This document shows positions 15,170 to 34,026 of a stretch of 64,000 nucleotides of DNA, piece by piece. Under the pieces are notes generated by a model. That model was not told the DNA's origin, made no database searches, and worked only from the letters and a program-made list of their open reading frames with translations. The DNA is taken from the IMG/VR virus record IMGVR_UViG_2700989538_000002; one strand, 5' to 3'. Each line of letters begins with the position of its first letter. Position 1 is the first letter of the stretch. Origin of the DNA: a virus. The translations under genes were made by a program, and so were the position numbers.

Positions 15170-15180
15170 GTGCGTTCTCC

Positions 15181-16600: not shown

Positions 16601-16687
16601 GATGGCGCTCCTGAAATGAAAAAAGGCCAGCCACACAGCGCAAACTGAGTGGACTGGCCAAGGGGAGGGAGGGGATGAAGAGGAAAA

Positions 16688-17698: not shown

Positions 17699-17763
17699 CT
17701 TGCGGATAGAAGAACGCCCGATCTGCGCGAGGCCGACCGGGCGTCATGAGGAGGGAAGGGGGA

Positions 17764-18732
17764 TCAGGCGACCAGTTGCAGCGCCGCGTCCAAGGCACGT
17801 TGCTTGACCTGTGCGCCCTGGCCGAACCAGGCCGAGTCCAGGCGGTATTCCGTGCTGCGGGCGCGGCGCTCGTGGTCGACGTACTCGGTCACGGCGTTGA
17901 GCAGGCCCCAGGCAGAGCCGCGTGCCGAATCCAACTGGCTGCCCCGGCCACGGCCCTCGTACAGCTCCTGCACCCGACGCAGCGCTCGCTCGTTCGGCAG
18001 TTGCTCCGGCAGTTGCCCGGTCGGATGGGTATCGCACATCACGTTCATGAAGAATCCCAGCGCCTCGTGCCACTGCACCTTGCGCTCGGCCAGTGCGCGC
18101 ATTCGGTACATGAAGTCATCCCATTGCGAAGCGGCAATGCCGAGCTGCTTCTTCACTGCCTTCGGATCGAAGCGGGTGTTGTGCGGCACCTTGATCGCCC
18201 GGCTGGTGCCGTTCAGGGCCACGGTCAGGGTGTTGTTGCACACCACCCGTACAGTGGTCGGCGTCGCCGTGGTGGCCAGGGTGCCGTCGCAGGACGTGGC
18301 CAGCAGCAGATAGCCGTTGACCTGGTCGTTACCTTTCAGAGCTGCGCCTTGTCCGGTACGCGCCAGCGCCCAGAACTTGCGCCCGCCCTTGAGCACGCCA
18401 GCGGTTTCCAGCTCGTAGCCGGAGACCTCGGTGAGATCTCGGTAGAACTCCAGCACTTCCCGCGGTTGCACCGTGTGATAGCGCTGGGAGACCACCGACA
18501 GCGGCGCCTTGGTGTCGGAGCGATACAGCACCTTCTGCTCGGGAAAGGAATGGATGGTGCCCAGGTGGCCGACGGCATCCGATTTGAAGTGCACGGGGCT
18601 TTCCAGGATCTGCCAGTCCATGCCGGCTTCATGCTGCCAGACGTCGATGGGCTGCTTTTGCGTGAGCTGATTGCCCAGGCCATGCCAGGGAGCGGCGCCA
18701 GCGTAGGCCATGGTTTCGATGAGATGAGCCAT
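17764..18732 (-). CDS. DUF932 (TIGR03299 phage/plasmid-like) protein
   Basis: MAHLIETMAYAGAAPWHGLGN...GYLLLATSCDGTLATTA resembles the DUF932 family found next to radC in ICEs. ATG at 18730-18732. Confidence 0.6.
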   Translation of the reverse strand: MAHLIETMAYAGAAPWHGLGNQLTQKQPIDVWQHEAGMDWQILESPVHFKSDAVGHLGTIHSFPEQKVLYRSDTKAPLSVVSQRYHTVQPREVLEFYRDLTEVSGYELETAGVLKGGRKFWALARTGQGAALKGNDQVNGYLLLATSCDGTLATTATPTTVRVVCNNTLTVALNGTSRAIKVPHNTRFDPKAVKKQLGIAASQWDDFMYRMRALAERKVQWHEALGFFMNVMCDTHPTGQLPEQLPNERALRRVQELYEGRGRGSQLDSARGSAWGLLNAVTEYVDHERRARSTEYRLDSAWFGQGAQVKQRALDAALQLVA

Positions 18733-18835
18733 AGTTGCGATTCCTTTGGGTGCAAGCCGGCATAAAGCGCTGCGCGAGGCGCAGCACCGACCGGATGGAT
18801 GAAATGAGAGGAGAGGAGAGGAGAGAGGAGCCGGA

Positions 18836-19165
18836 TCAGACCGGCAGGTTGAAGCGATAACCGCAGAGCAGGCAGAGGTTGTGGGCCAGGACATGACGGT
18901 CGAGCGACTCACCGAGCTGTGCGCCCAGCGCACAGCCACCAACCCCACCGGCCAGGCCGCCGAGGATGGCGCCCGATACGGAACCTAGGGTGATGCCGAC
19001 AGGGCCGGCGAACGCGCCGATAGCTGCGCCAGCCTGGCCACCTGCCAGGGCAACGCTGACGCCACGCGCAACACCGCCCACGGTGCCGATGGCGGCACCG
19101 ACTTTCATGGCGTGATGGAAGGAAGCGACTTTGGGGGAGTGACAGCGAGGGCACTGCAATGACAT
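18836..19165 (-). CDS. glycine-zipper membrane protein flanked by CxxC pairs (CPRC...CLLCG)
   Basis: Gly/Ala-rich zipper GGVARGVSVALAGGQAGAAIGAFAGPVGITLGSVSGAILGGLAGGVGG. Confidence 0.35.
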   Translation of the reverse strand: MSLQCPRCHSPKVASFHHAMKVGAAIGTVGGVARGVSVALAGGQAGAAIGAFAGPVGITLGSVSGAILGGLAGGVGGCALGAQLGESLDRHVLAHNLCLLCGYRFNLPV

Positions 19166-19476
19166 GGGGTGAACCTCCTTGGTGCTGATGTCATTGCTGT
19201 TATGTAGGCTTGAGAATTTTTTGAATCGGATGGTTGTGTTTTGAGCAGTTCATTTGGGGGCAAAGAACTTCAGTCGACCCGCTGTGGTCAGTCGCATCAG
19301 GCAAAAGCCGGCTAAAAGCGGACGCTTATGAGATCCAATCAGGTTTTATTAAGACTCACTTCCGTACGTCTGTAGCGCCCAGATTTACAGATCTCAGAAG
19401 GCGTAAAAATGGAGGTTGAGCACGAGTAACCGACCAGAGCGATCACTTGGCGACATTAGGTTCTGCCACATAAATT

Positions 19477-19502
19477 TATGTAGTATCCTACATTAGAAAA
19501 TG
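19477..19502. promoter_or_regulatory. overlapping operator-like palindromes ACATAAATTTATGT and ATGTAG-TATC-CTACAT (three ACAT/ATGT half-sites)
   Basis: Read from the sequence in a 30%-GC stretch 22 bp upstream of the HTH gene 19524..19808. Resembles a controller-protein operator. Confidence 0.4.
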
Positions 19503-19523
19503 TGACCTGATTTTGGCTTTGAG

Positions 19524-19808
19524 ATGCCGTATTCGGATTTCCTTGCAGAGCTTCAGAAGGCAGGCCTGAGTGTTCGTGCGTTTGCCGAACTGATCGGCAT
19601 GAATCCGAACTCACTTTCCAATTATGCACGGTGCGGCGAACTGCCTACCCATATTGCACTGATTGCGGTTCTTGTAGCCGGAATCAGCGAGATGGGAGGC
19701 GACTATCGTCAAATCATGTCAAAGGTCATCCTCACGCCGAAGAGGCCGCGAGGCGGTGCTCGACAGGGACGCTTCGGAGGCGACCCACAGCAGGACATGG
19801 ATTTCTGA
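19524..19808 (+). CDS. small XRE-like HTH protein, candidate R-M controller (C) protein, 94 aa
   Basis: LSVRAFAELIGMNPNSLSNYARCGELPTHIAL HTH. First gene of the methyltransferase/nuclease operon. Confidence 0.5.
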   Translation: MPYSDFLAELQKAGLSVRAFAELIGMNPNSLSNYARCGELPTHIALIAVLVAGISEMGGDYRQIMSKVILTPKRPRGGARQGRFGGDPQQDMDF

Positions 19809-19893
19809 ACCATGACGAATTATCGTCCCAACCAAAAGCCTAGGCTCGTCAAGGCGGCGCACCGGCCCCTAGCCATAACGGTAGGGCAAGCCG

Positions 19894-22800
19894 ATGGCTG
19901 ATCTCATCACCTCGCTTGTCGACTTCGGCGCCGATCCGAGCGCGGTTCGACTGTTCGATACCGATACCCCCGATCTGTTGCCTTACGCGACGCTTTTGGC
20001 TGCGCGTCGTGGCGATAATGGTGTGCTTGGCGCCGTGCGTGCTGTCTACGAATGGCAAGGCGCGCCGCTTATATTCCTAGTGGACGCTGACTCGCTCGCG
20101 GACGACGACCAGTTGCATCGCATACGCCGCCTGCTCGCCATGCGTGGAGACGCACCCTACATGGGTGTAGTCGCGCCGGGACGGCTCAATGTGTATCGCA
20201 TTGAACTCGACAAGTGCTCCCTGCGGCAGGCGCATGTCGAGATGGGCAGCAACGACGATGAAAAGTACGTAACGCTGGCGCGGTTGGGCAATCTGCGCCC
20301 GCGTGCCGCGATCAGCCAGCGCGGCTGGATTTCGAACGTCGTGCTAAATCTGCTTACCGGCTCGATTACACGGCTGATCGAATTGGGCGGCGTGTCGGAC
20401 GAAGATGCCATCTCGCTGGTCGGCCGAGCGTTGTTCACGCGTTTCCTTGCCGATCGCAACCTGTTGCCAGGCGGCATGTCCACACCCGGCACGGCTGCCA
20501 TGCTTTTCGACAACCGGGTAGCAGCCAAAAGCACCTCGAAATGGCTCGACACCACCTTTAATGGCGATCTGCTGCCCCTGTCGGAGGGCATTTTCGATGT
20601 ACTCTCGCAGCAGGCATTCTTGGTGCTGGGAGACGTTCTCAGGCGGGCACCGGACAGCCAGCTTTTTCTTGGCTGGCAAGAGAAGTGGGACAATCTCGAC
20701 TTCGCCCATATCCCCGTAGGCGTCCTGAGCCAGGCCTACGAGCTTTATCTGCGCAATCATGCTCCGGATCGGCAAAAGCGCGAGGGCGGCTTCTACACGC
20801 CACGCCCAATTGCCGACCTGATGGTTCGTGCCTCGTTCCGCGCCCTGGAGCGCAACGGAGCCAGCAAGGACGCCAAGGTGCTTGATCCATCGGCGGGAGC
20901 CGGCGTTTTTCTGCTGACGGCGTTCCGCGAACTGGTGGTCGAGCGCTGGCGCGCAGATGGAGAGCGCCCCAGCACACGAACTCTTAGGTCGATTCTCTAC
21001 CAGCAGATCACCGGTTTCGACATCAACGAGGCCGCGTTACGCTTTGCGGCGCTTGGTCTGTATCTCATGTCGATCGAGCTGGATCCCAACCCGAGGCCCG
21101 TGGATAAGCTCCGTTTCGAGAACCTGCGCGGCAAAGTGCTGCACCGTCTCGAGGTGCAGTCCCCGGAGGACGGCGCTGAACTGGGGAGCCTTGGCCCGCT
21201 GATCGATGAGCGGCATATAGGCAGATATGACCTGGTGATTGGCAATCCACCGTGGTCGAGCGGCACCAAGCTGCGAGATTGGCATCTGGTGCGCAACGCG
21301 GTCGCCCGTATCGCCAGCAATAGGCAAATCTCCAATCCCTCCCCGCCATTGCCAAACGAAGGGCTCGACCTTCCGTTCGTATGGCGCGCCATGGAGTGGG
21401 CGAAAGCCAATGGCCAGATTGCCTTCGCACTGCACGCACGTCTGCTTTTCCAACAGGGCGATGGCATGGTGGAGGCGCGCCAAGCGTTGTTCGAGGCGCT
21501 TGACGTTACCTCGATCATCAATGGCGTCGAACTGCGGCAGACCAAGGTGTGGCCCGAGATCTCGGCGCCATTCTGCCTCCTGCTCGCAACCAACCGGCGG
21601 CCAGGTGTAGGCGCCGGCTTTCGCCTCATCAGCCCCAGGCTGGAGCAGGCATTGAACGATGCAGGCAGCATGCGGATAGATGCGCTGAACGCCGAGCTCG
21701 TGCCGTCCTCACAACTTTTCGAAACGCCCGATATCCTGAAGATACTGTTCCGCGGGACAAAGGCCGATCTGGGCATAGTGGAGCGCATTCGCGCCCAAGG
21801 GCATCCGACGCTCGATGCTTACTGGCGTAGCCGTATTGGCGTGACAGAGCGGGGCCTCTTGCAGGGCAGCGGGAATGGCTATCAGCGGCTCCGGCCAAGC
21901 AGCCGGGTTCGCCGGCAAGGCGATGGCCTGCCGGGGGTGGACGCGAGTTACCTTCACGGCCTTCCGGAGATCAACGCCGAAACCTTCACCGGCCTGTTCA
22001 TCGATGGCGATGGTCTGGGGTCGTTTTCGCAGGCACGTATCCACGACCCCAGGTCCCCCTCTCTGTTCGCCGGCCCCTTGATCATCGTTCACAAATCCCC
22101 TCCTGCCGCGACGGGGCGGATAGGTATTGCAGTGGCGGAAAGGGACGTCGTCTTCAACGAGACCTTCTACGGCTATAGCCCAGGCGCACATCCCGATGCC
22201 GCATCACTGGTCCGCTACCTAGCGCTGATTCTCGGCAGCCAACTGGCGGTGTGGTTGGCGCTAGTTACCAGCGGAGAGTTCGGCTTCGAGCGCGAGGTCA
22301 TCGAGAAATACACCCTTGATCGCATTCCCATTCCCGACTTCGATGCCCTTGAGCCTGTCAGGCGCAAAGAAGTTTTCCAGTTGTTCGAGAGGTTGCGCAT
22401 GGGAGAGGTCTCCTGGCAGGACATCGACGAGTGGGTGGCGCGTCTTTATGGGCTGGGAACACGCGATCTGCAGGTTATTTCCGACACGCTCGCATACAAC
22501 CTGCCCTTTTCTGAAAACAAGCACAGGGCCCAGTCCCTTCCGAGGCCGGAGGAAAAGGCGAGATTCTGTGAAGTACTTGCCAGTGAATTGGCACCTTGGT
22601 GCGAGCGCTTCGGTTCCTCTCTCGTGGTACGACCAGCGTTCCAGCCTGCCGCTTCGCCCTGGCACGGTATCGAATTGCGGGTAGGCAACACCCACGCTAC
22701 CTCGGAGAACGATTGGGAAGGATTGTTGCGCGCCGCCGATGAGATCATGAGTTCGGAAATTCTGATCCGCACCGATGGCAATGGACTACTGATCGGACGG

Positions 22801-22902
22801 CTGGCCCAGCAGCGTTACTGGAGCGAGACGCAGGCGAGGCTGCTTGCACAACGCATCATCTGGTCACACCTGGACATATTGAAAGGATGCATCGAGGTAT
22901 GA
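19894..22902 (+). CDS. large N6-adenine DNA methyltransferase-family protein (HsdM/Eco57I-type N6_Mtase core, gamma-class order), 1002 aa, with unassigned N- and C-terminal regions
   Basis: GGFYTPRPIADLMVRA (N6_Mtase motif X), VLDPSAGAGVFLL (motif I) and LVIGNPPWSS (motif IV, NPPW). About 300 aa before and about 550 aa after the catalytic core. Confidence 0.8.
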   Translation: MADLITSLVDFGADPSAVRLFDTDTPDLLPYATLLAARRGDNGVLGAVRAVYEWQGAPLIFLVDADSLADDDQLHRIRRLLAMRGDAPYMGVVAPGRLNVYRIELDKCSLRQAHVEMGSNDDEKYVTLARLGNLRPRAAISQRGWISNVVLNLLTGSITRLIELGGVSDEDAISLVGRALFTRFLADRNLLPGGMSTPGTAAMLFDNRVAAKSTSKWLDTTFNGDLLPLSEGIFDVLSQQAFLVLGDVLRRAPDSQLFLGWQEKWDNLDFAHIPVGVLSQAYELYLRNHAPDRQKREGGFYTPRPIADLMVRASFRALERNGASKDAKVLDPSAGAGVFLLTAFRELVVERWRADGERPSTRTLRSILYQQITGFDINEAALRFAALGLYLMSIELDPNPRPVDKLRFENLRGKVLHRLEVQSPEDGAELGSLGPLIDERHIGRYDLVIGNPPWSSGTKLRDWHLVRNAVARIASNRQISNPSPPLPNEGLDLPFVWRAMEWAKANGQIAFALHARLLFQQGDGMVEARQALFEALDVTSIINGVELRQTKVWPEISAPFCLLLATNRRPGVGAGFRLISPRLEQALNDAGSMRIDALNAELVPSSQLFETPDILKILFRGTKADLGIVERIRAQGHPTLDAYWRSRIGVTERGLLQGSGNGYQRLRPSSRVRRQGDGLPGVDASYLHGLPEINAETFTGLFIDGDGLGSFSQARIHDPRSPSLFAGPLIIVHKSPPAATGRIGIAVAERDVVFNETFYGYSPGAHPDAASLVRYLALILGSQLAVWLALVTSGEFGFEREVIEKYTLDRIPIPDFDALEPVRRKEVFQLFERLRMGEVSWQDIDEWVARLYGLGTRDLQVISDTLAYNLPFSENKHRAQSLPRPEEKARFCEVLASELAPWCERFGSSLVVRPAFQPAASPWHGIELRVGNTHATSENDWEGLLRAADEIMSSEILIRTDGNGLLIGRLAQQRYWSETQARLLAQRIIWSHLDILKGCIEV

Positions 22903-23612
22903 GCGCTCCGGCTATCCGGCCCCGCCCCGACCAGATCGGCGAACTGACACGCGGCCTGCACCTGCCGCTCCCGGCGGTGGACGCCTTGCATTTGGAGATC
23001 ATCGCCGAAGGGCTATCCCGCGCATTCGCTGATGTTCGCGCACATCACCCGCTGGTGGTGAGCTCGGGTAGTGAGGCAGAAGTGACTAGCTTGATGGAGG
23101 CGCGCCTGAACGCACTGATCGGACAGGATCCCTTCTGGGGCCAGTTGGTGACGTGTGTCGTACGAGGCAAGGAAAGCGTGAGCTTCGACGGTTCGCATAT
23201 CGAGAAGCGGCCTGATCTCTCGATCTATCTGTCTAGTCGGGCACGGAACTTCCCTCTGATCGCCGAAGCGAAGATCATCGACTCCGGTGCATCCAAGACA
23301 GAGGCTTTGTACTGCGACAAAGGCTTGCATCGATTTCTTGCTGGAGAGTATGCCTGGGCGAACCAGGAAGCCTTCATGGTCGCTTATGTGCGCGACGGGT
23401 CGTCGATCAGCGATAGGCTGCTCCCATTTCTGGCAGACGCCATGACTCAGGCGCCTCCCCGTTATGCGGTGGAAGCGCTGCCCACCTCCTACTCAAGCGG
23501 TAAAAGTGATCTGGCGTGGTCTCGACACGCTAGAGGCTTCGTCTACAACCATCAGGCCCCACCCGCCCATCATCCTGGCTCAATTGCTATTTGGCATCTA
23601 TGGCTGTCGTAG
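22899..23612 (+). CDS. PD-(D/E)xK-family nuclease (restriction endonuclease-like), 237 aa, translationally coupled to the methyltransferase
   Basis: EKRPDLSIYLSSRARNFPLIAEAKIID gives PD-x20-E-A-K. ATG overlaps the upstream TGA (ATGA). RBS AAAGGA 11 nt upstream. Confidence 0.55.
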   Translation: MSAPAIRPRPDQIGELTRGLHLPLPAVDALHLEIIAEGLSRAFADVRAHHPLVVSSGSEAEVTSLMEARLNALIGQDPFWGQLVTCVVRGKESVSFDGSHIEKRPDLSIYLSSRARNFPLIAEAKIIDSGASKTEALYCDKGLHRFLAGEYAWANQEAFMVAYVRDGSSISDRLLPFLADAMTQAPPRYAVEALPTSYSSGKSDLAWSRHARGFVYNHQAPPAHHPGSIAIWHLWLS

Positions 23613-23638
23613 TGGGCGGTCGGGCGACGCTCTGTTGG

Positions 23639-24895
23639 TCACCGTATTGAAACGACTTTCCTATCCCGATTTTCCTGGATAGCAGCCACAGACAGGTTGC
23701 CAGTGGCTGCTTCCTGGATATGCTCGCTCCACCAGGTCATCATCGGGCGTCTGCGCTCGATGTAGTCCGCCCGGTTGTAGGCGCTGCGAACCTCATCCTT
23801 GTCGACATGCGCAAGCGCTACCTCGATCAGTTCAGGATCCCAGCCATGCTCGTTGAGGATGGTGCTCGCCATCGAGCGCATGCCGTGGCTGACCAGGCGC
23901 CCTTCGAAACCCATGCGTTTGAGTGCCATGTTGGCGGTCTGGCTGTTGCAGTGAGTGCGAGGGTTCCGGTCTGCGGGGAACACGTACTCTCGGTGTCCGC
24001 TGTACGGCTTGATCGCCTCCAGAAGTGCGAGGGCCTGTTCCGTGAGCGGGACGATATGCGTCCGGCGTTTCTTCATGCGTTCCGCAGGAATCGTCCAGAT
24101 CTTCTTCTCGATGTCGATGTCCGCCCAGCGTGTGGTTGCCGCCTCCGCTGGTCGGGTCATGGTGTGAAGTTGCCATTCGATCAGGCACCGAGTGGTCCTT
24201 TTGATGCTCGCATTGGCGACTGCCACCATGAGCTCTTTCAGCTCATCGGGAGGCAGCGCCGCCATGTTCTTCTTTTTCGGCTTCTTGAAGACGGAGCGGA
24301 TCCCGCTGAGCGGATTCGCGTGAATCAGTCCCGAATTGACCCCGTAGGTCATGATCTCGTTGAGCCGCTGCGTCAGCCGCTTCACGGTCTCAAGGCTGCC
24401 CTTGGTTTCGAGCGGCCGGAGCAGGTTGATGACCTTGGGGGCATTGATGGCGGAGATCGGGGTGCTGCCCAGGTCGGGGAAAACGTGCAGCGTGAGGGAG
24501 CGCCAGATGTCTTCGGCGTAGGCCTGTGTGACCGCATCCTTTTTCAGCTCATACCAGGCCGTCGCCACGTTCTGGAAGGTGTGTTCGGTCGCCGCCTTCT
24601 TGGCCTGTTGCACGGCATCCCGTTTCTCTTTGGGGTCGATCCCGTGGGCGAGGAGTTCCCGTGCTTCAACGGTTCTTTTGCGTGCCTGCGCCAATGAAAC
24701 TTCGGGGAAGGTTCCGAGCCCCATGTTGATCCGGTTCTTCGTCACCGGGTGCCGGTAGTTGAAGTTCCAGAGCTTTGAGCCATTGCTTCTCACTCGCATT
24801 TGAAGGCCGTCACCATCGCTCAGAACGTAGTCTTTCTCTTGAGGCTTGGCGGCTTTGACCTTGAGGTCCGAGAGGCGGGTGGCTTGGGCGCACAT
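23639..24895 (-). CDS. int: P4-type tyrosine integrase with DUF4102 arm-binding N-domain
   Basis: N-terminus LSDLKVKAAKPQEKDYVLSDGDGLQMRVRSNGSKLWNFNYR (DUF4102). C-terminal R...H-x-x-R...Y catalytic region (HGMRSMASTIL...AYNRADY). Lies next to a tmRNA 3' fragment. Confidence 0.85.
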   Translation of the reverse strand: MCAQATRLSDLKVKAAKPQEKDYVLSDGDGLQMRVRSNGSKLWNFNYRHPVTKNRINMGLGTFPEVSLAQARKRTVEARELLAHGIDPKEKRDAVQQAKKAATEHTFQNVATAWYELKKDAVTQAYAEDIWRSLTLHVFPDLGSTPISAINAPKVINLLRPLETKGSLETVKRLTQRLNEIMTYGVNSGLIHANPLSGIRSVFKKPKKKNMAALPPDELKELMVAVANASIKRTTRCLIEWQLHTMTRPAEAATTRWADIDIEKKIWTIPAERMKKRRTHIVPLTEQALALLEAIKPYSGHREYVFPADRNPRTHCNSQTANMALKRMGFEGRLVSHGMRSMASTILNEHGWDPELIEVALAHVDKDEVRSAYNRADYIERRRPMMTWWSEHIQEAATGNLSVAAIQENRDRKVVSIR

Positions 24896-24897
24896 GG

Positions 24898-24967
24898 GGT
24901 ATTCCAGAAGCGGTTTCGGTATTCCAAAAATTACCAGTGGATGGCTTGGAATACCACTTGGAATACC
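24898..24967. repeat. four TGGAATACC sites between the integrase start and the att core: two inverted (24898-24906, 24918-24926) and two direct (24946-24955, 24958-24967)
   Basis: Read from the sequence. Same motif pair as at 908-928. Candidate arm-type integrase or excisionase-binding sites. Confidence 0.5.
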
Positions 24968-25040
24968 GGATTTCGTAGATCCTGCTGGACGCTATCGGAT
25001 CGTGATATCGCTGAAAGCTCCGGAATTACTGGGTTTCAGG

Positions 25041-25069
25041 CACAAAAAAAGACGTCCGAGGACGTCTTT
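25041..25069 (-). terminator. rho-independent terminator (stem GACGTCC/GGACGTC, loop GA, then T7 on the minus strand) 11 nt downstream of the tmRNA 3' end copy
   Basis: Perfect 7-bp GC-rich stem followed by TTTTTTTGTG on the minus strand. Confidence 0.5.
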
Positions 25070-25080
25070 AGATGGTTATT

Positions 25081-25112
25081 TGGTGGAGCCGGGGGGATTT
25101 GAACCCGCATCT
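25081..25112 (-). other. ssrA: tmRNA (ssrA) 3'-terminal fragment and att core: GGTTCAAATCCCCCCGGCTCCACCA (T-arm + acceptor 3' strand + CCA), only about 25 nt
   Basis: Reverse complement of 25081-25105 equals the tRNA-like 3' end of tmRNA, with the CGGCUCC acceptor strand that carries the G3:U70 alanine determinant. No upstream tmRNA body, no tag-peptide coding sequence and no 5' GGGGCCG follow, so this is a duplicated att copy rather than a full gene. Confidence 0.5.
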
Positions 25113-25159
25113 AACCCTGTATTGGTGCGGCTTTCAGGTTCAAGGCTGCCATAAGGCTG

Positions 25160-25702
25160 TCATTCATCCAGAGATTCGTATTCATGCATGGCAGGCTTCC
25201 TGTGTGCCGCGCTCAGATCCCACTGATTCCAGATGTTCCGAAGATAGGTTGAAGTATTCTCCAGATCATCTTGGATGATCATCGGTTCGCCATCAGGGTC
25301 GCCGAAGGCGTAGACATACGCCGGCCAGTAATCGCCGTTCACATTAGAGGCTATATGTGCCCATTCCTTCAGGTATGCCTCTTTGTCGTATACGGCCCAG
25401 AAGGCTTGGTCGACAAGGACGGTCAGCGAACCTTTCCTTTCCCCAATGAACTTGACCGGGCCGAGTAGCCCCCTGAAGTACCCCGCGTTAATCACATCGA
25501 TAATTCGCTCGTCATGGTCCTCATCCCAAATGACAGCGAATTTTTGAATGTTGGCTGAGTGATCGGGGTGCGGAACCATATGTTCATCGCACCATTGAGC
25601 ACAGCTCAATATGGAGTAATGGGTTCCCCTTCCGATATAGCCCGCGGGTTCTGATTGGTCGTAGACGGTAGAGAAATAGGGGGAATAGCTGCGATTTTTC
25701 AT
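25160..25702 (-). CDS. hypothetical moron protein (180 aa) between the att core and the prophage integrase
   Basis: ATG at 25700-25702 with an AAGGA RBS. Lower GC (about 50%) than the flanks. His/Trp-rich sequence with no recognised motif. Confidence 0.45.
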   Translation of the reverse strand: MKNRSYSPYFSTVYDQSEPAGYIGRGTHYSILSCAQWCDEHMVPHPDHSANIQKFAVIWDEDHDERIIDVINAGYFRGLLGPVKFIGERKGSLTVLVDQAFWAVYDKEAYLKEWAHIASNVNGDYWPAYVYAFGDPDGEPMIIQDDLENTSTYLRNIWNQWDLSAAHRKPAMHEYESLDE

Positions 25703-25761
25703 AGTTGGTCCTTTAGTATTTTTCCAATACTGCGTCGCGCCTTTCGGGCGCTGCACGGTCG

Positions 25762-26943
25762 CTAGCCAGTTGGCAGGTTTTCTAGGTCTGGTGTCAAGCG
25801 CTTTTTGCCCCACAGGTCCTCCGCTTTCGATCCAGCGTGCTCATCAGCTGTTGGCATCCACCTGCCGTAGACCCTGGCAATCATCGTCCAGTCGCTGTGC
25901 CCCATCTGCTGCGCAACCCACATGGGGTGCTCGCCGGCGGACAGCATCATCGAGGCATAGGTGTGCCGGGTCTGGTAGGGACGACGGTAGCGCACGCCGG
26001 CCTTCTTCAGCGCGTAAACCCACAGTGTTTTCCGGATCGGTCCGTCGCCGACCCATCGCTCGCCCGTCCTTGGATTCTGGAAGACTTCCTGGTTGGCCAG
26101 GTAGGTGAATGCCTTCTGCGCTTTCAGGGCTTCCAGCGCAGGGCCGAGCAGCTTGATGCTGCGCCGGCCGGATGTGGTTTTCGTCACCTCCGCTTTCCCC
26201 TTGGCCGCCTGGGTCATGGCGCGAGTGACATGCACCTCGCCGCGGAGCCAGTCAATATCGCCCCACTCGAGGCCGACGAGTTCGCTGGTCCGCATCCCCG
26301 TCCAGAGTGCGAACTGCACCAGGTTCCGCCCTTGACCATCCAAGGCATCCAGAATCGCTCGCTGCTCTTCCGGCGAGAACGGGTCCACGTCGTCGCCCTT
26401 GACCTCTCCCTTCCTTGCGTATGTCCAGCCGGCGAGGGGATTGTTGTCGATCAGTTCCTCTTCCATCGCATCACTGAGGGCCGAGCGTAGGCAGCTCTGG
26501 ATATTGCTGAGTGTCTTGTTGCTCACCTTCAAAGTATCCAGCCAATCCTTGACGGTTTTCCGCTTCAGGTCGACCACCATGACGGGGCCTAGGGCTGGCA
26601 CCAGGCGAAGCTCTACAATCTTCCTGTAGCCCTCGAAGGTACTGCTGGAGACGTGCTTGCGCTTCGACTCAAGCCATCGGCCAAGGAATCCCGTAACCGT
26701 TTCGCGTGACGCCTCAGGCGCAAACTTGGCGGCGCGCGGAGATCCAGGAAATGTCACCGAGTAGTCGAAGGTGCCGGCGGCGATCGCATGTTCGACAGCC
26801 GCCTTATGCTGCTCCGCTCGCTTCAGGTTAGTGGCGGTGGGCTTGAGCGAGATGCGCTCCCGGCACCTGACGCCGCGATACATGAACGTGATTTCGATAC
26901 TCGAATCAGAGACCGCCCTGACTCCCCGCCCATCTCTACCCAT
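25762..26943 (-). CDS. int: lambda-family tyrosine integrase (prophage)
   Basis: C-terminal catalytic region ...RPYQTRHTYASMMLSAGEHPMWVAQQMGHSDWTMIARVYGRW (H-x-x-R...Y). The preceding small gene overlaps it in the usual xis-int arrangement. Confidence 0.85.
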   Translation of the reverse strand: MGRDGRGVRAVSDSSIEITFMYRGVRCRERISLKPTATNLKRAEQHKAAVEHAIAAGTFDYSVTFPGSPRAAKFAPEASRETVTGFLGRWLESKRKHVSSSTFEGYRKIVELRLVPALGPVMVVDLKRKTVKDWLDTLKVSNKTLSNIQSCLRSALSDAMEEELIDNNPLAGWTYARKGEVKGDDVDPFSPEEQRAILDALDGQGRNLVQFALWTGMRTSELVGLEWGDIDWLRGEVHVTRAMTQAAKGKAEVTKTTSGRRSIKLLGPALEALKAQKAFTYLANQEVFQNPRTGERWVGDGPIRKTLWVYALKKAGVRYRRPYQTRHTYASMMLSAGEHPMWVAQQMGHSDWTMIARVYGRWMPTADEHAGSKAEDLWGKKRLTPDLENLPTG

Positions 26944-27098
26944 GCTTCATAGCCTTCTACATCAATAAGCGTCCGGCCATCCGGTGCTTTCTTCCATACG
27001 TCGCCGAGGCGCCAGATTCCGTCGCGGATCTTCGAGCGCACAGCGTCTTCGGTGTAGCCAGACTCGCTGGCGAATTTTTTAACAGTCAGGTAGCGCAT
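26823..27098 (-). CDS. xis: putative excisionase / DNA-binding protein
   Basis: MRYLTVKKFASESGYTEDAVRSKIRDGIW... resembles an Xis-like winged helix. Overlaps the int 5' end as in lambda. Confidence 0.45.
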   Translation of the reverse strand: MRYLTVKKFASESGYTEDAVRSKIRDGIWRLGDVWKKAPDGRTLIDVEGYEAWVEMGGESGRSLIRVSKSRSCIAASGAGSASRSSPPPLT

Positions 27099-27430
27099 TC
27101 CTGAGGTCTAGGCTTGAATGCAAGCCCCTCCCAGCGGCCGGATGGGCCGCGGATCTCGCTGCGCCGAACGTAGGCCCGGCGTTTCTTGCTATCGAACAGT
27201 GCCTGGCAGACATCCATCCGCTCATCATTATTCGTTATTGCCAGTAGTCTGGCGCGGTCACCGCTGTTGACGAAGACAAAGCCGTCCTTGACCTTCCCGA
27301 ATCCACTGGTCCGGTATAAGGCCCAGCGCGCCCCTCCTTTCTTGCCCCCCTTCGACCCTTCGGTCAGGTAGAACGCGAACTCTCCCCTCATCACGCGGAA
27401 CAGAGTTCTAGCCATGGCGACCCCCTCCAT
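27086..27430 (-). CDS. hypothetical phage early protein
   Basis: ORF in the leftward early operon. Confidence 0.4.
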   Translation of the reverse strand: MEGVAMARTLFRVMRGEFAFYLTEGSKGGKKGGARWALYRTSGFGKVKDGFVFVNSGDRARLLAITNNDERMDVCQALFDSKKRRAYVRRSEIRGPSGRWEGLAFKPRPQECAT

Positions 27431-28127
27431 CTTTCCCCACTTCCGTATAGACCTCAGGCTTTCGCTCGACCGTGCGGATTGAACCGTCTCGGCAGTGCAG
27501 CGTCAGCGCGGCCCGCTTCGTCTCGATCGTGCCGTCGTTGCGGATCACTGTCTGGGGCACGCCATAGAGTGGCCCGCCGGGAGCGAACGGATCGGGTAGA
27601 GCCTCAGGGTTCTCCTCTGCGAATCGCAGCATCTCGGCTATGATGCAGTTGAACAGTGGGCCGTCCTTCAGGTCCGCCTCTCGCCTTCCGCTGAAAGCGT
27701 TCGAGCTATCCTCAAGGCCCTCGACGAAGGCGATGTGATTGAGCATCTGCCCAGGCTTGGCGCCTTGGATGGCGGAGCGGTGGACCGGATTGACGCCGAG
27801 GGCATCGCAGATGCGATCGACTCCAATCTCTCCCTCGATCCACCTCTCGGCCTGCAGGAGCCAGGCGCCAAGGGCGGCTTGGGCTTTCTCGTGGTAGCTG
27901 CTGGATGTTTTCCGAAACTCCTTCGCCTGTTCCAACTGGGCCCTGGTGAATGGAAGGCCCTTCCTTGCCTCCTTGATCTTTCGATCAGCGCAGGTCCTGT
28001 CGGCCTCCCAGCCGAACTGGTACTGCCTGGCCATGCGACGCGCGACCAGGAGGCGGGTGAGCGCGGAGAGGTCTGGCTTGTCCCAAATGTTGAGCAGACG
28101 CTTCAGGTTCTCGTAGGTCATCAGCAT
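27408..28127 (-). CDS. hypothetical phage early protein, 239 aa
   Basis: ORF in the track. Co-oriented operon. Confidence 0.4.
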   Translation of the reverse strand: MLMTYENLKRLLNIWDKPDLSALTRLLVARRMARQYQFGWEADRTCADRKIKEARKGLPFTRAQLEQAKEFRKTSSSYHEKAQAALGAWLLQAERWIEGEIGVDRICDALGVNPVHRSAIQGAKPGQMLNHIAFVEGLEDSSNAFSGRREADLKDGPLFNCIIAEMLRFAEENPEALPDPFAPGGPLYGVPQTVIRNDGTIETKRAALTLHCRDGSIRTVERKPEVYTEVGKDGGGRHG

Positions 28128-28600
28128 GATGGCGGCTCCTTGTCCACGCCCATCCTATGGAGTAGACGTTCCTTGCAGAGCTGTTCTTGAAGGCGTTGGA
28201 TCTCGCAGGTGTAATTCTTTGCAGTCCGCAGCGAGCCGAGCGCGTATCCGACGTAGAGGACGCCCGCGCACCAGACGATGCAGAGGAGTAGTGTTCCGAT
28301 CATGGCTGGCGCCCCTTGTCCGTGTCGCAGATCCGCAGGTCGACCCCGCAGGCCTGGACCAGTTCGGTCAACTCGCCGAGCTTGGTGTTGGGGTTCTGCA
28401 TCGCCTGGCCCAGGCGGACCAACTGTTGGCCTAGGGTGGCGAGCGGGGTAGGGCGATACCCTGGTGGTGGAATATCGGAGCCTCTCATCACTGGCATACC
28501 TCCCAGATGAACAGGGTCTTGAACGGCTGGAGCGCGGTGCCGGCGGCAACCGCAGCCAGGCCAAACAGCGCGACGAGTGCGATGGCGGTCAGTGCTTTTC

Positions 28601-29128
28601 TCATGCATCACCCAGTAGGAGTCGCATCGCCGCGTAGGTTTCGGGGGCTCCCCTGCTGCGTTGCCAGTCCAGCCCAGCTTCTTGCAGGAAAAGGTTGGTG
28701 AGCTTTCCCCAACTGCTCGCCAGTGCGGCCCACTCCTGGCTGTGCTGGGCCATCTCGCGGATGCGTGGCGCCCATTCAGGGATCAGGTTCAGCAGAAGCA
28801 GGCAGCGATTCAGATCATCCGGGTCATGGGGATAGGCCGCGTGATGGCGTTCCATGGGCAGACCGAGCATGTGATCGTGGATGGCCCGCGAAGACGCTCC
28901 CACTTGACCGTCCCTCAGCCATCTCGCGGCCCGCTCCTCGATGGTGCTGCCGGTACCGGGCATGCTGGTGTCGTAGCCCAGCGGGCAGCCGGCGTTATCC
29001 AGGGCTTTGACGCAGGCATCATCGAAACTTGCCAGGTCAACCCGGCCCTGAATCAGGTCGTTCATTACCGGGGTGATAGCGTCGAGCTGGCGCTGGTTGA
29101 GGGCATGGCCCTTGAGGGTGATGCTCAT
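28601..29128 (-). CDS. hypothetical phage early protein, 175 aa
   Basis: ORF in the track. Overlaps the next gene by 4 nt. Confidence 0.4.
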   Translation of the reverse strand: MSITLKGHALNQRQLDAITPVMNDLIQGRVDLASFDDACVKALDNAGCPLGYDTSMPGTGSTIEERAARWLRDGQVGASSRAIHDHMLGLPMERHHAAYPHDPDDLNRCLLLLNLIPEWAPRIREMAQHSQEWAALASSWGKLTNLFLQEAGLDWQRSRGAPETYAAMRLLLGDA

Positions 29129-30024
29129 GCGTCACCGCCTTCCGCCGGCGCGGTCCAATTGTGAATGGCCAGTTCCACACGGTCGGTAGCGACGTCAACG
29201 CCTGCGCACAGAACCTCGGCCGACCATTTCGCCATGGCAGCATCGATGGCCTCGTCCAGATCAGCCTCTACCAGGAGGTTGCCGTCCTTGTCCCGCGGGA
29301 GAAGGTTGACGACGCTCTTGTCCATGCGATTGACCTCGCGGGCCAGGTCCGATGCGTAGAGAGCCGTGTTGCGCAGCCACAGGTAGCGCTTGGCGTTCTC
29401 GGCCTGCACTTCCCGCTCCAGCATCTGGTCCATCTCGACGCAGTCCTGGCACTGGCCATGCTGGCGAATGAAGGCCGCTTCGACGCTGTCCCCGGCGAAC
29501 CAGTGGTTGCAGCGGCAGAAGGCCGGATCGACTGGTTGTTGCTGGCGCTTCATCTCGGTGACCACCACCTCGACGGCCTCGATCACCGGCACGCCGACGT
29601 AGCCGTCCTCGATTGCCACGCGATCAAGCCAGCGCACCAGAGTTTGGAGGCTTTCGGCCAGTTTGCTGTCGCCCGATCCCGGCGCGGGGTGGGGTCGCTC
29701 GCCGGCATTACCCGGTCCGGAAACAGGTTCGCCGCCAGGATTGCCCGGTTCGGAACTCGCTCCAGCGCCACTCAATGCCGCCAGTGCGATCTGTCGCATG
29801 TTCGCCGCCGGCATGTTGTCCTGCTCGGGACAGGGGTACTCGGCGATGGTGCGGAGCGCCAGGACGGCGCGCTCGAGCGGATGCTCTTCTGCAGCCTCGG
29901 CGCCGGCCAGGTGCTTCGCTACCGTTTCCCGGATGACGCGCAGCGCGTTCATGGCCTGGAGCGAGCTACCGTCCTGGCCGAGCTTGGCGGTCAGATCGAT
30001 CTGTTTAAACAGGGCATGGGTCAT
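29125..30024 (-). CDS. hypothetical phage early protein, 299 aa (Cys cluster CRCNHW...CQDC)
   Basis: ORF in the track. Confidence 0.4.
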   Translation of the reverse strand: MTHALFKQIDLTAKLGQDGSSLQAMNALRVIRETVAKHLAGAEAAEEHPLERAVLALRTIAEYPCPEQDNMPAANMRQIALAALSGAGASSEPGNPGGEPVSGPGNAGERPHPAPGSGDSKLAESLQTLVRWLDRVAIEDGYVGVPVIEAVEVVVTEMKRQQQPVDPAFCRCNHWFAGDSVEAAFIRQHGQCQDCVEMDQMLEREVQAENAKRYLWLRNTALYASDLAREVNRMDKSVVNLLPRDKDGNLLVEADLDEAIDAAMAKWSAEVLCAGVDVATDRVELAIHNWTAPAEGGDA

Positions 30025-30356
30025 AGGTCACCCCCTTGCTCGGCTCTGCGCACCGCCTGGTAGGCGAGGGCGTAGCAAGCCATTTGCACCAGCAGGCTTG
30101 AAGCCGCGAGCGCAGGGTGATCTGTGAGGGCCAGGGCCGCCACGTGCAGAGCGCCGGTAGGGATGGAGAGCCACGGGCGGGCGAGCATGTTCGCGGCTCC
30201 TTGCCCCTTGATGCCGCCGGCGAAGATCAGCAGCCAACAGAGGACGTTTAGGGCCGCTGACACATAGAAGGCGAACTGGTGGATGGAGCCATGTCCGAAG
30301 TACAGACACGCGCTGATCAGCAGGCTGACCGCGGTACTGGTGAGTGCTTGCTTCAT
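30021..30356 (-). CDS. small membrane protein, 111 aa
   Basis: Three predicted hydrophobic helices. Confidence 0.4.
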   Translation of the reverse strand: MKQALTSTAVSLLISACLYFGHGSIHQFAFYVSAALNVLCWLLIFAGGIKGQGAANMLARPWLSIPTGALHVAALALTDHPALAASSLLVQMACYALAYQAVRRAEQGGDL

Positions 30357-30358
30357 GA

Positions 30359-30589
30359 TCAGCGGCCTCCGACGGCGGTGGTCAACGCATCGAGGAGCGC
30401 ATGCTTTCGGCGCTGGCCATGCAGGTACTCGCGCAGGGCAACGACGATCAAGGAGTTCATGCTGCGCTCGTCTCGCTTGGCCTCGGCTTCGACCTCGGCC
30501 CTCAGTCCGTCCGGCAGTCGGACAACGAACTTGTCCATGTCCCGGCTGGTGCTGGCCGGCAGTTCGGTTACAACGGTTGCTCGTTTCAT
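30359..30589 (-). CDS. Arc/MetJ-type ribbon-helix-helix DNA-binding protein
   Basis: KFVVRLPDGLRAEVEAEAKRDERSMNSLIVVALREYL is an Arc-like RHH. Confidence 0.55.
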   Translation of the reverse strand: MKRATVVTELPASTSRDMDKFVVRLPDGLRAEVEAEAKRDERSMNSLIVVALREYLHGQRRKHALLDALTTAVGGR

Positions 30590-30591
30590 GA

Positions 30592-31380
30592 TCAGCCCCC
30601 CGCCTTCACGAACCGGTGGTTGTCATCCAGCTTGTAGGCAACACCTGGCTCAAGGCCGTCTTCGCCGATATAGCCGATGACGGTGCGGTACCGTTCGGTC
30701 TTTTCGTCCCAGTAGCGGATTTGGATCTCGCCTTTCTTCCCGGCGGTGGCGGTGCCCTCGTCCCCGGCGGTGGCGGTGCCCTCGTCCCCGGCGGTGGCGG
30801 TGCCCTCGTTCCCGGCGGTGGCGGTGCCCCAGTACCCGGCGGTGGCGGTGCCCTTGTACCCGGCGGTGGCGGTGCCCTCGTCCCCGGCGGTGGCGGTGCC
30901 CTTGTACCCGGCGGTGGCGGTGCCCTTGTACCCGGCGGTGGCGGTGCCATATGCGCCTACCTGACAGAGTTCCTTATCGCCTGCCTGTAGGGTGGCGCCG
31001 ATCACTGCTACGCCAGCCGCGCGCGGTTCGTTTGCGATCAGGAACTGTGTTGCGCTTGCCTTGTCCCCGATGTGACGGACTGTGCAGCGAGGAAACTTCA
31101 CCTTGCCGCCGAGGGCGATCAGGTCGGAGAGACCCACTTCAACCACCAGCCACTTCGCATCTGCGTCGCCTACGGTGCTGCTGCAATCATGGTCGCCCTG
31201 TCCGAACAGCCATCCATGCAGGCCGTGACCGCACTTGTTGTCCTTCTTCCAGTCCGGGGCTTCGACTACCGCTCCGATCTTGTCTGGCCACTGAAACCCG
31301 CCGTGACTGGTGAGATCAGCGCTGCAGGTCCTGAGGATGAGAGCGGTGCCTTGCTTCTTGGTCTTTGCTTTGGTGGTCAT
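30592..31380 (-). CDS. phage protein with nine tandem octapeptide repeats (GTATAG-x-x), 263 aa
   Basis: ATG at 31378-31380. Repeat block YGTATAGYKGTATAGYKGTATAGDEG... encoded by the 24-bp tandem DNA repeats. Confidence 0.5.
   Translation of the reverse strand: MTTKAKTKKQGTALILRTCSADLTSHGGFQWPDKIGAVVEAPDWKKDNKCGHGLHGWLFGQGDHDCSSTVGDADAKWLVVEVGLSDLIALGGKVKFPRCTVRHIGDKASATQFLIANEPRAAGVAVIGATLQAGDKELCQVGAYGTATAGYKGTATAGYKGTATAGDEGTATAGYKGTATAGYWGTATAGNEGTATAGDEGTATAGDEGTATAGKKGEIQIRYWDEKTERYRTVIGYIGEDGLEPGVAYKLDDNHRFVKAGG
30740..30955. repeat. 9 x 24-bp perfect or near-perfect tandem repeat (CGGCGGTGGCGGTGCCCTCGTCCC-type units), intragenic
   Basis: Read directly from the sequence. Units differ only at the two wobble-linked codons that encode x-x. 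Confidence 0.7.
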
Positions 31381-31424
31381 GTTTTTCTCCAGTGGCGCCA
31401 TCGCTGGCGCCGGGGCGAGGGTGG

Positions 31425-32261: not shown

Positions 32262-32512
32262 TGGTCTTTCTCCTTGCTGGTGGTGGCCGCTTCTTCGCGG
32301 CGGGTGTTGGCGAGGTGGATGCCGAGGCAGACCGAGGCGATCAACCAGACGCCGGGGATGGCGAATCCCGCGAAGACCAGAACATCGTCGCGACTGCTGA
32401 CCAGGGCCGGCCCAATGCCGCCCACCAGGGCGACGGACAACCCGGCATAGGCCAGCAGGGCGATACAGATCAGGAAGAGCTTCCCGGGCTTGATGAGAGG
32501 TTTGTTGTCCAT
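32258..32512 (-). CDS. small two-TM membrane protein, overlaps and is co-transcribed with the SPFH gene
   Basis: ATGA overlap with the downstream SPFH gene. Hydrophobic helices LFLICIALLAYAGLSVALVGG and VFAGFAIPGVWLIASVCLGI. Confidence 0.45.
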   Translation of the reverse strand: MDNKPLIKPGKLFLICIALLAYAGLSVALVGGIGPALVSSRDDVLVFAGFAIPGVWLIASVCLGIHLANTRREEAATTSKEKDQ

Positions 32513-32611
32513 GCTTTCCTCCAGGCAAGCCGATGGCCTGCCGCGGTTGTTGGCTTTCGCGAAAATCGGTTGGTTACTGCTTGGCTGCTTCGGCGCGTTC
32601 GGTCTGCCGCG

Positions 32612-33252: not shown

Positions 33253-33348
33253 TTCAAGTTATTCGCAAATGAATTTATTGTCAATGCATTATTGAATTTT
33301 TCGAGAGACAAAAAAGCCCGCAATGCGGGCTTGGTAGGTATCCGGTGG

Positions 33349-33939: not shown

Positions 33940-34026
33940 CCCTTGTAAGACGATGAGAGATTGTATTGCGATGCCCTATGCGTTGGTGTATTTTTATTGA
34001 TGCATAGATGAATAAGGCCATGCAGG

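What the first reader, a model, noticed from the sequence alone, without database searches (positions are those of the whole stretch)
24898..25112. Two mobile elements in tandem at a tmRNA 3'-end att site; only a 25-nt ssrA 3' copy plus terminator is present
The plus-strand 25081-25105 is the exact reverse complement of the tmRNA tRNA-like 3' end (GGTTCAAATCCCCCCGGCTCCACCA), and a strong terminator lies 11 nt downstream. No tmRNA body or tag-coding sequence follows, so this is an att-site duplicate. The P4-type integrase of island 1 sits immediately to its left, and the lambda-type integrase of the prophage, with a moron, immediately to its right. Both read toward lower coordinates. This is a tandem accretion at ssrA. 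The intact ssrA is expected outside the window, probably right of the prophage.
Basis: partly seen in the sequence, partly recalled or inferred. Interest (0 to 1): 0.55.

Follow-up and report, generated by a model that had tools for sequence, protein, structure and literature searches.

The report
Island and prophage stacked at ssrA
A 26-base leftover of the tmRNA gene's 3' end marks the seam between a defence-carrying genomic island and a prophage that both inserted into the same Pseudomonas aeruginosa gene; this is an ordinary case of a well-known integration hotspot.

Summary
Window 25081-25106 (- strand) is an exact 26-nt copy of the 3' end of the tmRNA gene (ssrA), followed 11 nt later by a terminator. 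ARAGORN and Rfam find no tmRNA body in the window.

A public record identical to the window's last 12.3 kb continues to an intact 353-nt tmRNA gene about 2.6 kb past the window end, at the far end of the prophage.

Other P. aeruginosa genomes show every intermediate state:
- an empty site (ssrA followed by the native terminator)
- the island alone next to intact ssrA
- the prophage alone

The free phage JBD68 carries the same 25-nt core in its attP.

The left element (about 858-25080, 24.2 kb) resembles E. coli CP4-57. It has an IntA-type integrase, AlpA, Shedu and a type IIG-like restriction-modification gene. The right element is a prophage of about 41.5 kb related to LESphi2 and JBD68.

The locus is the published "core defence hotspot 2". 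Low novelty. One curiosity: the island's distal copy lacks the tmRNA G·U wobble base, as in CP4-57 and CP4So.

The parts
779..820 (-). Native (chromosomal) ssrA terminator, displaced about 65.7 kb from the gene by the two insertions
   Evidence: The same hairpin directly follows intact ssrA in empty sites L150 and L151. It also follows the remnant in prophage-only genomes. It folds at -22.7 kcal/mol, z = -5.7.
833..857 (-). Degenerate third ssrA 3' copy, the distal att site of island 1. It reads cATTTCAGATTACCCCGGC-CCACCA and lacks the T that encodes the tmRNA G3·U70 wobble U.
   Evidence: Alignment with ssrA, attP and empty-site sequences. The same T-less copy is found in the five other island-1 loci examined, L013-L017, of which L013 is the source record. 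Homology to the empty site resumes at window 845.
908..928 (-). Two GGTATTCCA repeats in the distal arm of island 1; putative arm-type integrase binding sites
   Evidence: All 6 copies in the 64-kb window lie at the two island ends, against 0.21 expected. Their function is inferred.
858..25080 (.). Island 1: a 24.2-kb CP4-57-like integrative island carrying defence genes. These are Shedu SduA (5126-6586, -) and a type IIG-like restriction-modification gene (19894-22902, +). It also carries DUF932, YqaJ, RadC, YfjT and YfjJ-like genes.
   Evidence: Gene contexts and Pfam families. PADLOC gives SduA at 1e-167 and REase_MTase_IIG at 5e-24. The boundaries come from comparison with empty sites.
3517..3747 (+). 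AlpA-family gene of island 1; likely excisionase or regulator
   Evidence: Pfam Phage_AlpA on the 76-aa product; ORF read. The role is inferred from CP4-57 and CP4So (PMC5148205).
23639..24895 (-). Island 1 integrase, P4/IntA type, 418 aa
   Evidence: Pfam Arm-DNA-bind_3, Phage_int_M and Phage_integrase. NCBIfam NF007246 at 511 bits over its full length. 50% identical to E. coli K-12 IntA of CP4-57 over 411 aa.
24898..24967 (.). Four GGTATTCCA repeats (two direct, two inverted) between the att core and the integrase start; putative arm-type sites of island 1
   Evidence: They are identical in island-only genomes.
25041..25069 (-). Island-borne intrinsic terminator. It serves intact ssrA in island-only genomes. 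Here it can end only transcripts that read through from the prophage integrase and 180-aa ORF.
   Evidence: The same sequence follows intact ssrA in L006. It differs from both the native and the phage-borne terminators.
25081..25106 (-). 26-nt exact ssrA 3' remnant (GGGTTCAAATCCCCCCGGCTCCACCA). It is shared between the integrase-proximal att of the prophage and the integrase-proximal att of island 1.
25160..25702 (-). 180-aa cargo ORF ('moron') between the prophage integrase and its att
   Evidence: No match in Pfam, NCBIfam or PADLOC. It accompanies this integrase in all eight places shown and is absent from JBD68.
25762..26943 (-). Prophage tyrosine integrase, 393 aa
   Evidence: Pfam Arm-DNA-bind_2, Phage_int_SAM_3 and Phage_integrase. 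The DNA is about 93% identical to the integrase regions of JBD68, vB_Pae_CF55b and others.
25107..64000 (.). Prophage of about 41.5 kb that runs off the window. It ends at the intact ssrA at window-equivalent 66592.
   Evidence: 74-77% of window 39001-64000 matches the phages Ostro, vB_PaeS_AV001 and LESphi2 at 92-95% identity. The right end and ssrA come from L001.

Best explanation
The segment is the seam of a tandem array of two independent integrative elements in the 3' end of the Pseudomonas aeruginosa tmRNA gene (ssrA). Each element encodes a tyrosine integrase. Each carries, in its attP, a copy of the last nucleotides of ssrA plus its own terminator. Recombination with ssrA therefore rebuilds a complete gene from element DNA and pushes the previous 3' end downstream.

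Reading in the direction of ssrA (high to low window coordinates), the order is:
- intact ssrA, just outside the window, rebuilt by the prophage and followed by the phage-borne terminator
- the 41.5-kb LESphi2/JBD68-like prophage, with its integrase at the far end
- the 26-nt ssrA remnant (25106-25081)
- the island-borne terminator and four arm-type repeats
- the 24.2-kb CP4-57-like defence island, with its IntA-type integrase first
- a degenerate ssrA copy (857-833)
- the native ssrA terminator and the chromosomal flank

What is shown: the anatomy, both integrases, all three ssrA copies, and the empty, single-occupancy and attP states in other genomes.

What is inferred: that the island was there first and the phage then entered the rebuilt ssrA; that the GGTATTCCA repeats are arm sites; and that either element can still excise.
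For: - The 26-nt copy is exact, unique in the window and not expected by chance.
- The window holds no tmRNA body.
- An intact tmRNA gene with the same 3' end lies at the other end of the prophage, in a record identical to the window's right 12.3 kb.
- Island-only genomes have the same junction at 99.99% identity.
- Prophage-only genomes have the same phage-side junction, followed by the native terminator.
- Empty sites join the right chromosomal flank directly to window 845-1.
- The attP of the free phage JBD68 has 25 nt of ssrA 3' identity. It also has the very terminator that follows intact ssrA here.
- Both integrases are full-length by Pfam and NCBIfam.
- GGTATTCCA occurs 6 times, only at the two island ends, against 0.21 expected.
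- The three ssrA copies are followed by three different strong terminators.
- Published context: this ssrA-to-VOC/LysR interval is 'core defence hotspot 2' (PMC10250203). Tandem arrays with one tDNA fragment and one integrase per island are a recognised class (Islander, PMC4383910).
Against: - The intact ssrA was not seen in the window itself. It comes from a public record that differs from the window by 120 nt in a prophage tandem repeat, so the two are near-identical rather than proven identical.
- The island's distal copy is imperfect: 3-4 substitutions and a 1-nt deletion. Its present mobility is therefore uncertain.
- The order of insertion cannot be read from the final structure. The island entering the displaced remnant after the phage would give the same map.
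- No excision products or expression data were available.
Confidence: 0.95

Rival explanations
1. The same tandem array, built in the opposite order. The prophage integrated first, and the island later integrated into the displaced 26-nt remnant rather than into the intact gene.
For: The remnant keeps the whole stretch shared by the island's two att copies (CCCCGGC(T)CCACCAAA). It could therefore serve as a secondary attB. The final map would be identical.
Against: The exact 418-aa integrase was read on 13 contigs. All places shown except the source record have the island directly at intact ssrA with no prophage. Copies of the island in five further loci (L013-L017) lie on three different native-flank haplotypes: AAATA, AAACA and AAACG. 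This points to an old, widespread island. The tandem state was seen only in the source record. The closest relative of this island and flank, at 1 mismatch in 11.5 kb and the same AAATA haplotype, lacks the prophage.
Confidence: 0.12
2. One composite 66-kb element with two integrases that moves as a unit, with the 26-mer as an internal relic.
For: The two elements are adjacent, and their outermost ssrA copies could in principle recombine.
Against: Each half occurs alone at ssrA in other genomes with clean junctions. JBD68 is a free phage with its own attP. The outermost copies differ in the T-loop part that the phage attP matches.
Confidence: 0.02
3. The 25-mer is a chance match, a tRNA-Ala 3' fragment, or the stump of an ssrA gene destroyed by deletion.
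For: The acceptor 3' strand GGCTCCACCA also fits tRNA-Ala. No gene body is adjacent.
Against: None of 100 shuffles gave a match. The 26 nt are identical to the genome's own tmRNA 3' end, T-loop included. An intact ssrA exists 41.5 kb away, so nothing was destroyed. The break point coincides exactly with the phage attP boundary seen in eight places shown, including the source record.
Confidence: 0.01

Closest known systems
Tandem arrays of genomic islands at tRNA and tmRNA genes (Williams 2002; Islander database, PMC4383910)
   Same: An intact target gene sits at one end. Each element has one same-orientation 3' fragment and one integrase gene. The elements restore the gene. tmRNA is the most enriched target. 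All of this was seen here.
   Different: Nothing essential differs. The island's distal fragment is degenerate enough (3-4 substitutions and a deletion) to escape simple repeat searches.
E. coli K-12 cryptic prophage CP4-57 and Shewanella oneidensis CP4So (P4-like elements in ssrA)
   Same: The IntA-type integrase sits immediately downstream of ssrA and is 50% identical to K-12 IntA. Shared genes include AlpA, YfjJ-like, YfjT, DUF932 (YfjQ-like) and RadC-like. The distal att copy lacks the T for the tmRNA G·U wobble, as in CP4-57 and as published for CP4So.
   Different: The host and cargo differ: Shedu and a type IIG-like restriction-modification gene here, against AbpAB and RnlAB in K-12. 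Here the island no longer abuts the intact gene, because a prophage lies between. Excision and its effect on tmRNA are untested in Pseudomonas.
P. aeruginosa temperate siphoviruses JBD68, vB_Pae_CF55b/CF79a, LESphi2 and Ostro (F10-like group)
   Same: The integrase region is about 93% identical in DNA. The attP has the same 25-nt ssrA core and the same P'-arm terminator. 74-75% of the structural region matches at about 95%.
   Different: The segment between the integrase and the core differs. JBD68 has two forward genes there; this prophage has a 180-aa reverse ORF with no family match. The genomes are mosaic elsewhere.
Core defence hotspot 2 (cDHS2) of P. aeruginosa (Johnson et al. 2023, PMC10250203)
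   Same: The markers match: ssrA on one side, and VRR-NUC, VOC and LysR genes on the other. The site is occupied by mobile elements carrying defence systems.
   Different: The paper describes the hotspot statistically. It does not, in the passages read, dissect att sites or tandem order.

Membership tests
Tandem island array at a tmRNA gene (Islander criteria) | Intact tmRNA gene at one end of the array | tested here: met
   ARAGORN finds a 353-nt tmRNA with tag ANDDNYALAA. Rfam RF00023 scores 207.5 bits over the full length, at L001 14920-15272 (window-equivalent 66592-66944). It lies outside the window, in a record identical to the window's last 12.3 kb.
Tandem island array at a tmRNA gene (Islander criteria) | Each element has its own 3' gene fragment in the same orientation as the gene | tested here: met
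   An exact 26-nt fragment lies at 25081-25106 (-). A degenerate fragment lies at 833-857 (-). Both have the orientation of ssrA.
Tandem island array at a tmRNA gene (Islander criteria) | Each element has its own integrase gene | tested here: met
   The integrases lie at 23639-24895 and 25762-26943. Both give near full-length tyrosine recombinase domain hits.
Tandem island array at a tmRNA gene (Islander criteria) | The elements occur independently and the site can be empty | tested here: met
   Island-only genomes L006-L012. Prophage-only genomes L140 and L144. Empty sites L150 and L151.
CP4-57 / CP4So-like ssrA islands | IntA (P4-type) integrase directly downstream of ssrA | tested here: met
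   50% identity to K-12 IntA over 411 aa, E = 2e-152. NF007246 is matched above its cut-off. The gene is adjacent to intact ssrA in island-only genomes.
CP4-57 / CP4So-like ssrA islands | AlpA-family excision regulator | tested here: met
   Pfam Phage_AlpA on the 76-aa product at 3517-3747. Its activity was not tested.
CP4-57 / CP4So-like ssrA islands | Distal att copy lacking the wobble U of the tmRNA acceptor stem | tested here: met
   The window and five island-1 loci (L013-L017) read CCCCGGC-CCACCA. K-12 reads CCGCCAGC-CCACCAA. The same is published for CP4So. The empty attB has the T.
CP4-57 / CP4So-like ssrA islands | Excision alters or inactivates tmRNA | not testable with these tools
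   This needs PCR and sequencing of excision junctions in an island-only strain.
JBD68 / LESphi2-like temperate phages | Shared integrase and attP core | tested here: met
   The integrase DNA is about 93% identical. The JBD68 attP holds 25 of the 26 nt of the core, plus the same downstream terminator.
JBD68 / LESphi2-like temperate phages | Complete structural and lysis module | tested here: inconclusive
   Terminase, portal, Clp-protease/capsid, tape measure and tail genes match at 92-95% over about 75% of 25 kb. Gene-by-gene intactness and inducibility were not checked.
   ARAGORN finds none and Rfam at gathering scores finds none. The only hit is a 10.3-bit local match, against a threshold of 47.

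The most novel reading that the evidence does not exclude
Island 1 may belong to a cross-genus family (CP4-57, CP4So and this one) whose distal att copy lacks, as a built-in feature, the U of the tmRNA G3·U70 alanine-identity pair. In island-only strains, excision would then leave an uncharged, non-functional tmRNA. That would act either as an addiction device or as a physiological switch, as shown for Shewanella CP4So.

In this genome the later prophage insertion moved the island's proximal att onto a 26-nt decoy. Island loss would therefore no longer touch ssrA, so the tandem arrangement would uncouple the switch.

The T-less copy and its conservation are shown here. Its consequence in Pseudomonas is untested.
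Probability: 0.3. Interest if true: 0.45.

Novelty: already known. Interest (0 to 1): 0.15.

Why it matters
The value is mainly for annotation. The seam fixes the exact borders of two mobile elements: a 24.2-kb island carrying Shedu and a type IIG-like restriction-modification gene, and a 41.5-kb prophage related to LESphi2 and JBD68. It also shows that three different terminators can serve ssrA, depending on which element sits next to it.

It adds a fully resolved set of sites for the published P. aeruginosa ssrA defence hotspot: attB, both junctions of each element, and the attP of the related free phage JBD68. The island's own attP is only reconstructed.

One wider point concerns the missing wobble-U in the island's distal att copy. 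It is now seen in E. coli, Shewanella and Pseudomonas elements with related IntA integrases. This suggests that tmRNA inactivation on excision may be a family trait, and that is testable.

Tried and rejected
- Exact and 3-mismatch searches for a further core copy in the window and in the left extension found nothing. A 14-mer search with 2 mismatches gave only a chance-level hit at 15015. The island's distal copy emerged only by comparison with a prophage record that overshoots into the chromosomal flank.
It returned ssrA genes of many Pseudomonadaceae and Cellvibrio species but no P. aeruginosa. It shows only that this 3' end is widely conserved.
- A viral-contig scan for the empty attB found nothing. 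The metagenome scan then found three contigs.
- ATGACAGC/ATGGCAGC motifs lie near both prophage att ends and in the JBD68 attP. They may be arm sites of the phage integrase, but there are too few copies for statistical support.
- My first coordinate transfer from the public record to the window was off. The causes were a 120-nt repeat-number difference and a 1-nt offset that made one search fail. One search repeated that search with corrected coordinates.
- Rejected explanations: chance match, tRNA-Ala fragment, decayed ssrA gene, and a single composite element (see the rival explanations).

Full report
**Observation**

Window 25081-25105 (+) reads TGGTGGAGCCGGGGGGATTTGAACC, the reverse complement of a tRNA-like T-arm, acceptor strand and CCA. 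It is unique in the window even with three mismatches allowed, and none of 100 shuffles produced it. On the - strand, 11 nt after the CCA, lies a 9-bp hairpin followed by a T-run (25069-25048). It folds at -13.9 kcal/mol, z = -4.7. ARAGORN finds no tRNA or tmRNA in the 64 kb, and Rfam finds nothing at gathering thresholds. A permissive Rfam scan gives only a 10-bit local tmRNA match at 25081-25131 (-), against a threshold of 47. So a 3' stump is present and no gene.

**Flanking integrases**

- 23639-24895 (-) encodes a 418-aa integrase with the P4-type architecture: Arm-DNA-bind_3, Phage_int_M and Phage_integrase. It matches NCBIfam NF007246 over its full length.
- 25762-26943 (-) encodes a 393-aa integrase with Arm-DNA-bind_2 and Phage_integrase domains.
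- Between the second integrase and the stump lies a 180-aa ORF (25160-25702, -). It has no match in Pfam, NCBIfam or PADLOC.

**Where the intact gene is**

An exact-protein look-up of a tail gene near the window's right end found a 3.37-Mb contig, GCA_900455145.1. It is identical to window 51673-64000 (0 mismatches in 12,328 nt) and continues 9.3 kb further. In that extension the prophage ends at a complete 353-nt tmRNA gene on the - strand with tag ANDDNYALAA. Rfam RF00023 scores it at 207.5 bits over the full model. Its position is window-equivalent 66592-66944, about 2.6 kb past the window end, and its last 26 nt equal window 25106-25081. Beyond it lie chromosomal genes: a 292-aa ORF, TetR, a hydrolase, AraC, OmpA-like and pta.

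One caveat applies. The same record has 120 nt more than the window in a 24-nt tandem repeat inside the prophage. The window is therefore a near-identical relative or another assembly, and the extension is a very strong inference rather than a direct reading.

**Other states of the site**

1. *Island only.* The exact 418-aa integrase was read on 13 contigs. Every place shown except the source record has intact ssrA immediately upstream of it. L006 9790-21257 matches window 25106-13639 with one mismatch, and homology starts exactly at the 26-mer.
2. *Prophage only.* The exact 393-aa integrase is very common, listed in 186 index blocks. In seven of eight places shown, the same phage-side junction (...GGGTTAGATGC|GGGTTCAAATCCCCCCGGCTCCACCA) is followed by a different hairpin, AAGCCCCTGA...TCAGGGGCTT. 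In L144 the genes for a 212-aa protein, TM2, PAAR, VRR-NUC and TsiV follow directly; in five others further islands lie beyond that hairpin. Only the source record has island 1 at this position.
3. *Empty site.* Three metagenome contigs carry ssrA directly followed by that same hairpin. L150 and L151 join window-equivalent 66589 straight to window 845-1. The hairpin at window 779-820 is therefore the native ssrA terminator (-22.7 kcal/mol). The two elements together are a 65.7-kb insertion.
4. *attP.* The free phage JBD68 carries TGGTTCAAATCCCCCCGGCTCCACCA about 1 kb from its integrase gene, so 25 nt are identical to ssrA. This is followed by the very terminator and arm sequence that follow intact ssrA in the source record.

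**Anatomy of the left element**

Its far end lies inside the window. On the - strand, 857-833 reads cATTTCAGATTACCCCGGC-CCACCA. This is a degenerate ssrA 3' copy followed by the native terminator. The simple searches missed it. Repeat-to-repeat, the island is 24,248 bp.

The nonamer GGTATTCCA occurs six times in the window, against 0.21 expected. All six are at the island's two ends: 908-928 and 24898-24967. I take them to be arm-type sites for the Arm-DNA-bind_3 domain, which is an inference. Four of them lie inside the flagged interval.

The cargo includes:
- Shedu SduA (5126-6586; PADLOC 1e-167)
- a 1002-aa type IIG-like restriction-modification protein (19894-22902)
- AlpA, YfjJ-like, YfjT, DUF932, YqaJ and RadC genes

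The integrase is 50% identical to IntA of E. coli K-12 CP4-57, and the gene set overlaps that of CP4-57.

**Anatomy of the right element**

74-77% of window 39001-64000 matches Pseudomonas phages Ostro, vB_PaeS_AV001 and LESphi2 at 92-95% identity. The integrase region matches JBD68, vB_Pae_CF55b and others at about 93%. Repeat-to-repeat the prophage is about 41.5 kb.

**Mechanism**

Each attP mimics the 3' end of ssrA and brings its own terminator. Integrase-mediated exchange within the shared core rebuilds the gene from element DNA and displaces the former 3' end. Three ssrA 3' copies are therefore followed by three different strong terminators:
- the phage-borne one, next to the live gene
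- the island-borne one, next to the 26-mer
- the native one, next to the degenerate copy

The 26-mer doubles as the integrase-proximal att of the prophage and the integrase-proximal att of the island.

The likelier order is island first, then phage. Island-only genomes are many and sit on three native-flank haplotypes. The closest relative of this island and flank lacks the prophage, and the tandem state was seen only once. The reverse order, with the island entering the remnant, gives the same map and is not excluded.

**Comparison with what is known**

This is the textbook arrangement for tDNA-targeting elements. The Islander database formalises tandem arrays by exactly these criteria and notes tmRNA as the most enriched target. 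The interval from ssrA to the VRR-NUC, VOC and LysR genes is the published "core defence hotspot 2" of P. aeruginosa. The VOC and LysR markers lie just left of the window. Nothing here departs from known kinds.

**One curiosity**

The island's distal copy lacks the T that encodes the U of the tmRNA G3·U70 pair. That reading follows from pairing 5' GGGGCCG with 3' CGGCUCC. The same T is missing in the five other island-1 loci examined, L013-L017, of which L013 is the source record. It is also missing in the E. coli K-12 CP4-57 distal copy, CCGCCAGC-CCACCAA. In Shewanella CP4So, excision was shown experimentally to yield a non-functional ssrA lacking that U (PMC5148205).

The empty Pseudomonas attB has the T. 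The T-less version is therefore either carried by the element or created in the exchange region. If the Pseudomonas island behaves like CP4So, its loss from island-only strains would cripple tmRNA. In the tandem strain, the island's proximal att is only a decoy stump and ssrA would be spared. This is untested.

**Verdict**

The feature is an already known kind of system and of low interest.

Noticed in passing
window 833-857 (-); L141 about 22670-22690 (E. coli K-12): The distal att copy of the IntA-type island lacks the T encoding the tmRNA G3·U70 wobble U. The same base is missing in E. coli CP4-57 and, as published, in Shewanella CP4So, where excision inactivates tmRNA. The empty Pseudomonas attB has the T.
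   Followed up: partly
window 30682-30996, inside ORF 30592-31494 (-): A 24-nt tandem repeat of about 10 units lies inside a prophage gene, which carries DUF7666 in the public record. The otherwise near-identical record GCA_900455145.1 has 120 nt (5 units) more, so copy number varies between assemblies or isolates.
   Followed up: partly
window about 940-955 (-): A T-loop-like motif, AGGTTCAAATCCAGCC, lies about 90 nt inside island 1 from its distal att, next to the GGTATTCCA repeats. It may be an old tDNA scrap or part of the attP arm. It remains unexplained.
   Followed up: no
window 61673-63331 (+); loci L002-L005: The identical 552-aa tail-region protein, with a collinear tail-gene order, occurs in prophages of other strains that end next to a tRNA-synt_1b gene and OprD rather than ssrA. 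These are mosaic phages with a different integration site.
   Followed up: no
window 25160-25702 (-): A 180-aa ORF lies between the prophage integrase and att. It has no match in Pfam, NCBIfam or PADLOC. It accompanies this exact integrase in all eight places shown, yet is absent from JBD68, which has two unrelated forward genes there.
   Followed up: partly
window 15182-16600 (-) versus loci L006, L007, L009: In the source record the Gp3-like and RadC genes of island 1 are called as one 472-aa product. Other strains have separate 316-aa and 165-aa genes. This could be a fusion or a frameshift difference.
   Followed up: no
window 10366-10554 (+): Island 1 carries a 62-aa CsrA-family gene, plus a Phage_GPD (VgrG-like) fragment and a DnaB N-terminal fragment at about 7644-9114. 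In other strains an IS66 element with an OTCace_N gene is inserted in this part of the island (L014-L016).
   Followed up: no
loci L019-L098: The last 38 nt of this tmRNA gene are identical in more than 120 genome contigs, from Pseudomonas, Stutzerimonas, Azotobacter, Cellvibrio and other genera. The att core targeted here is conserved far beyond P. aeruginosa.
   Followed up: no
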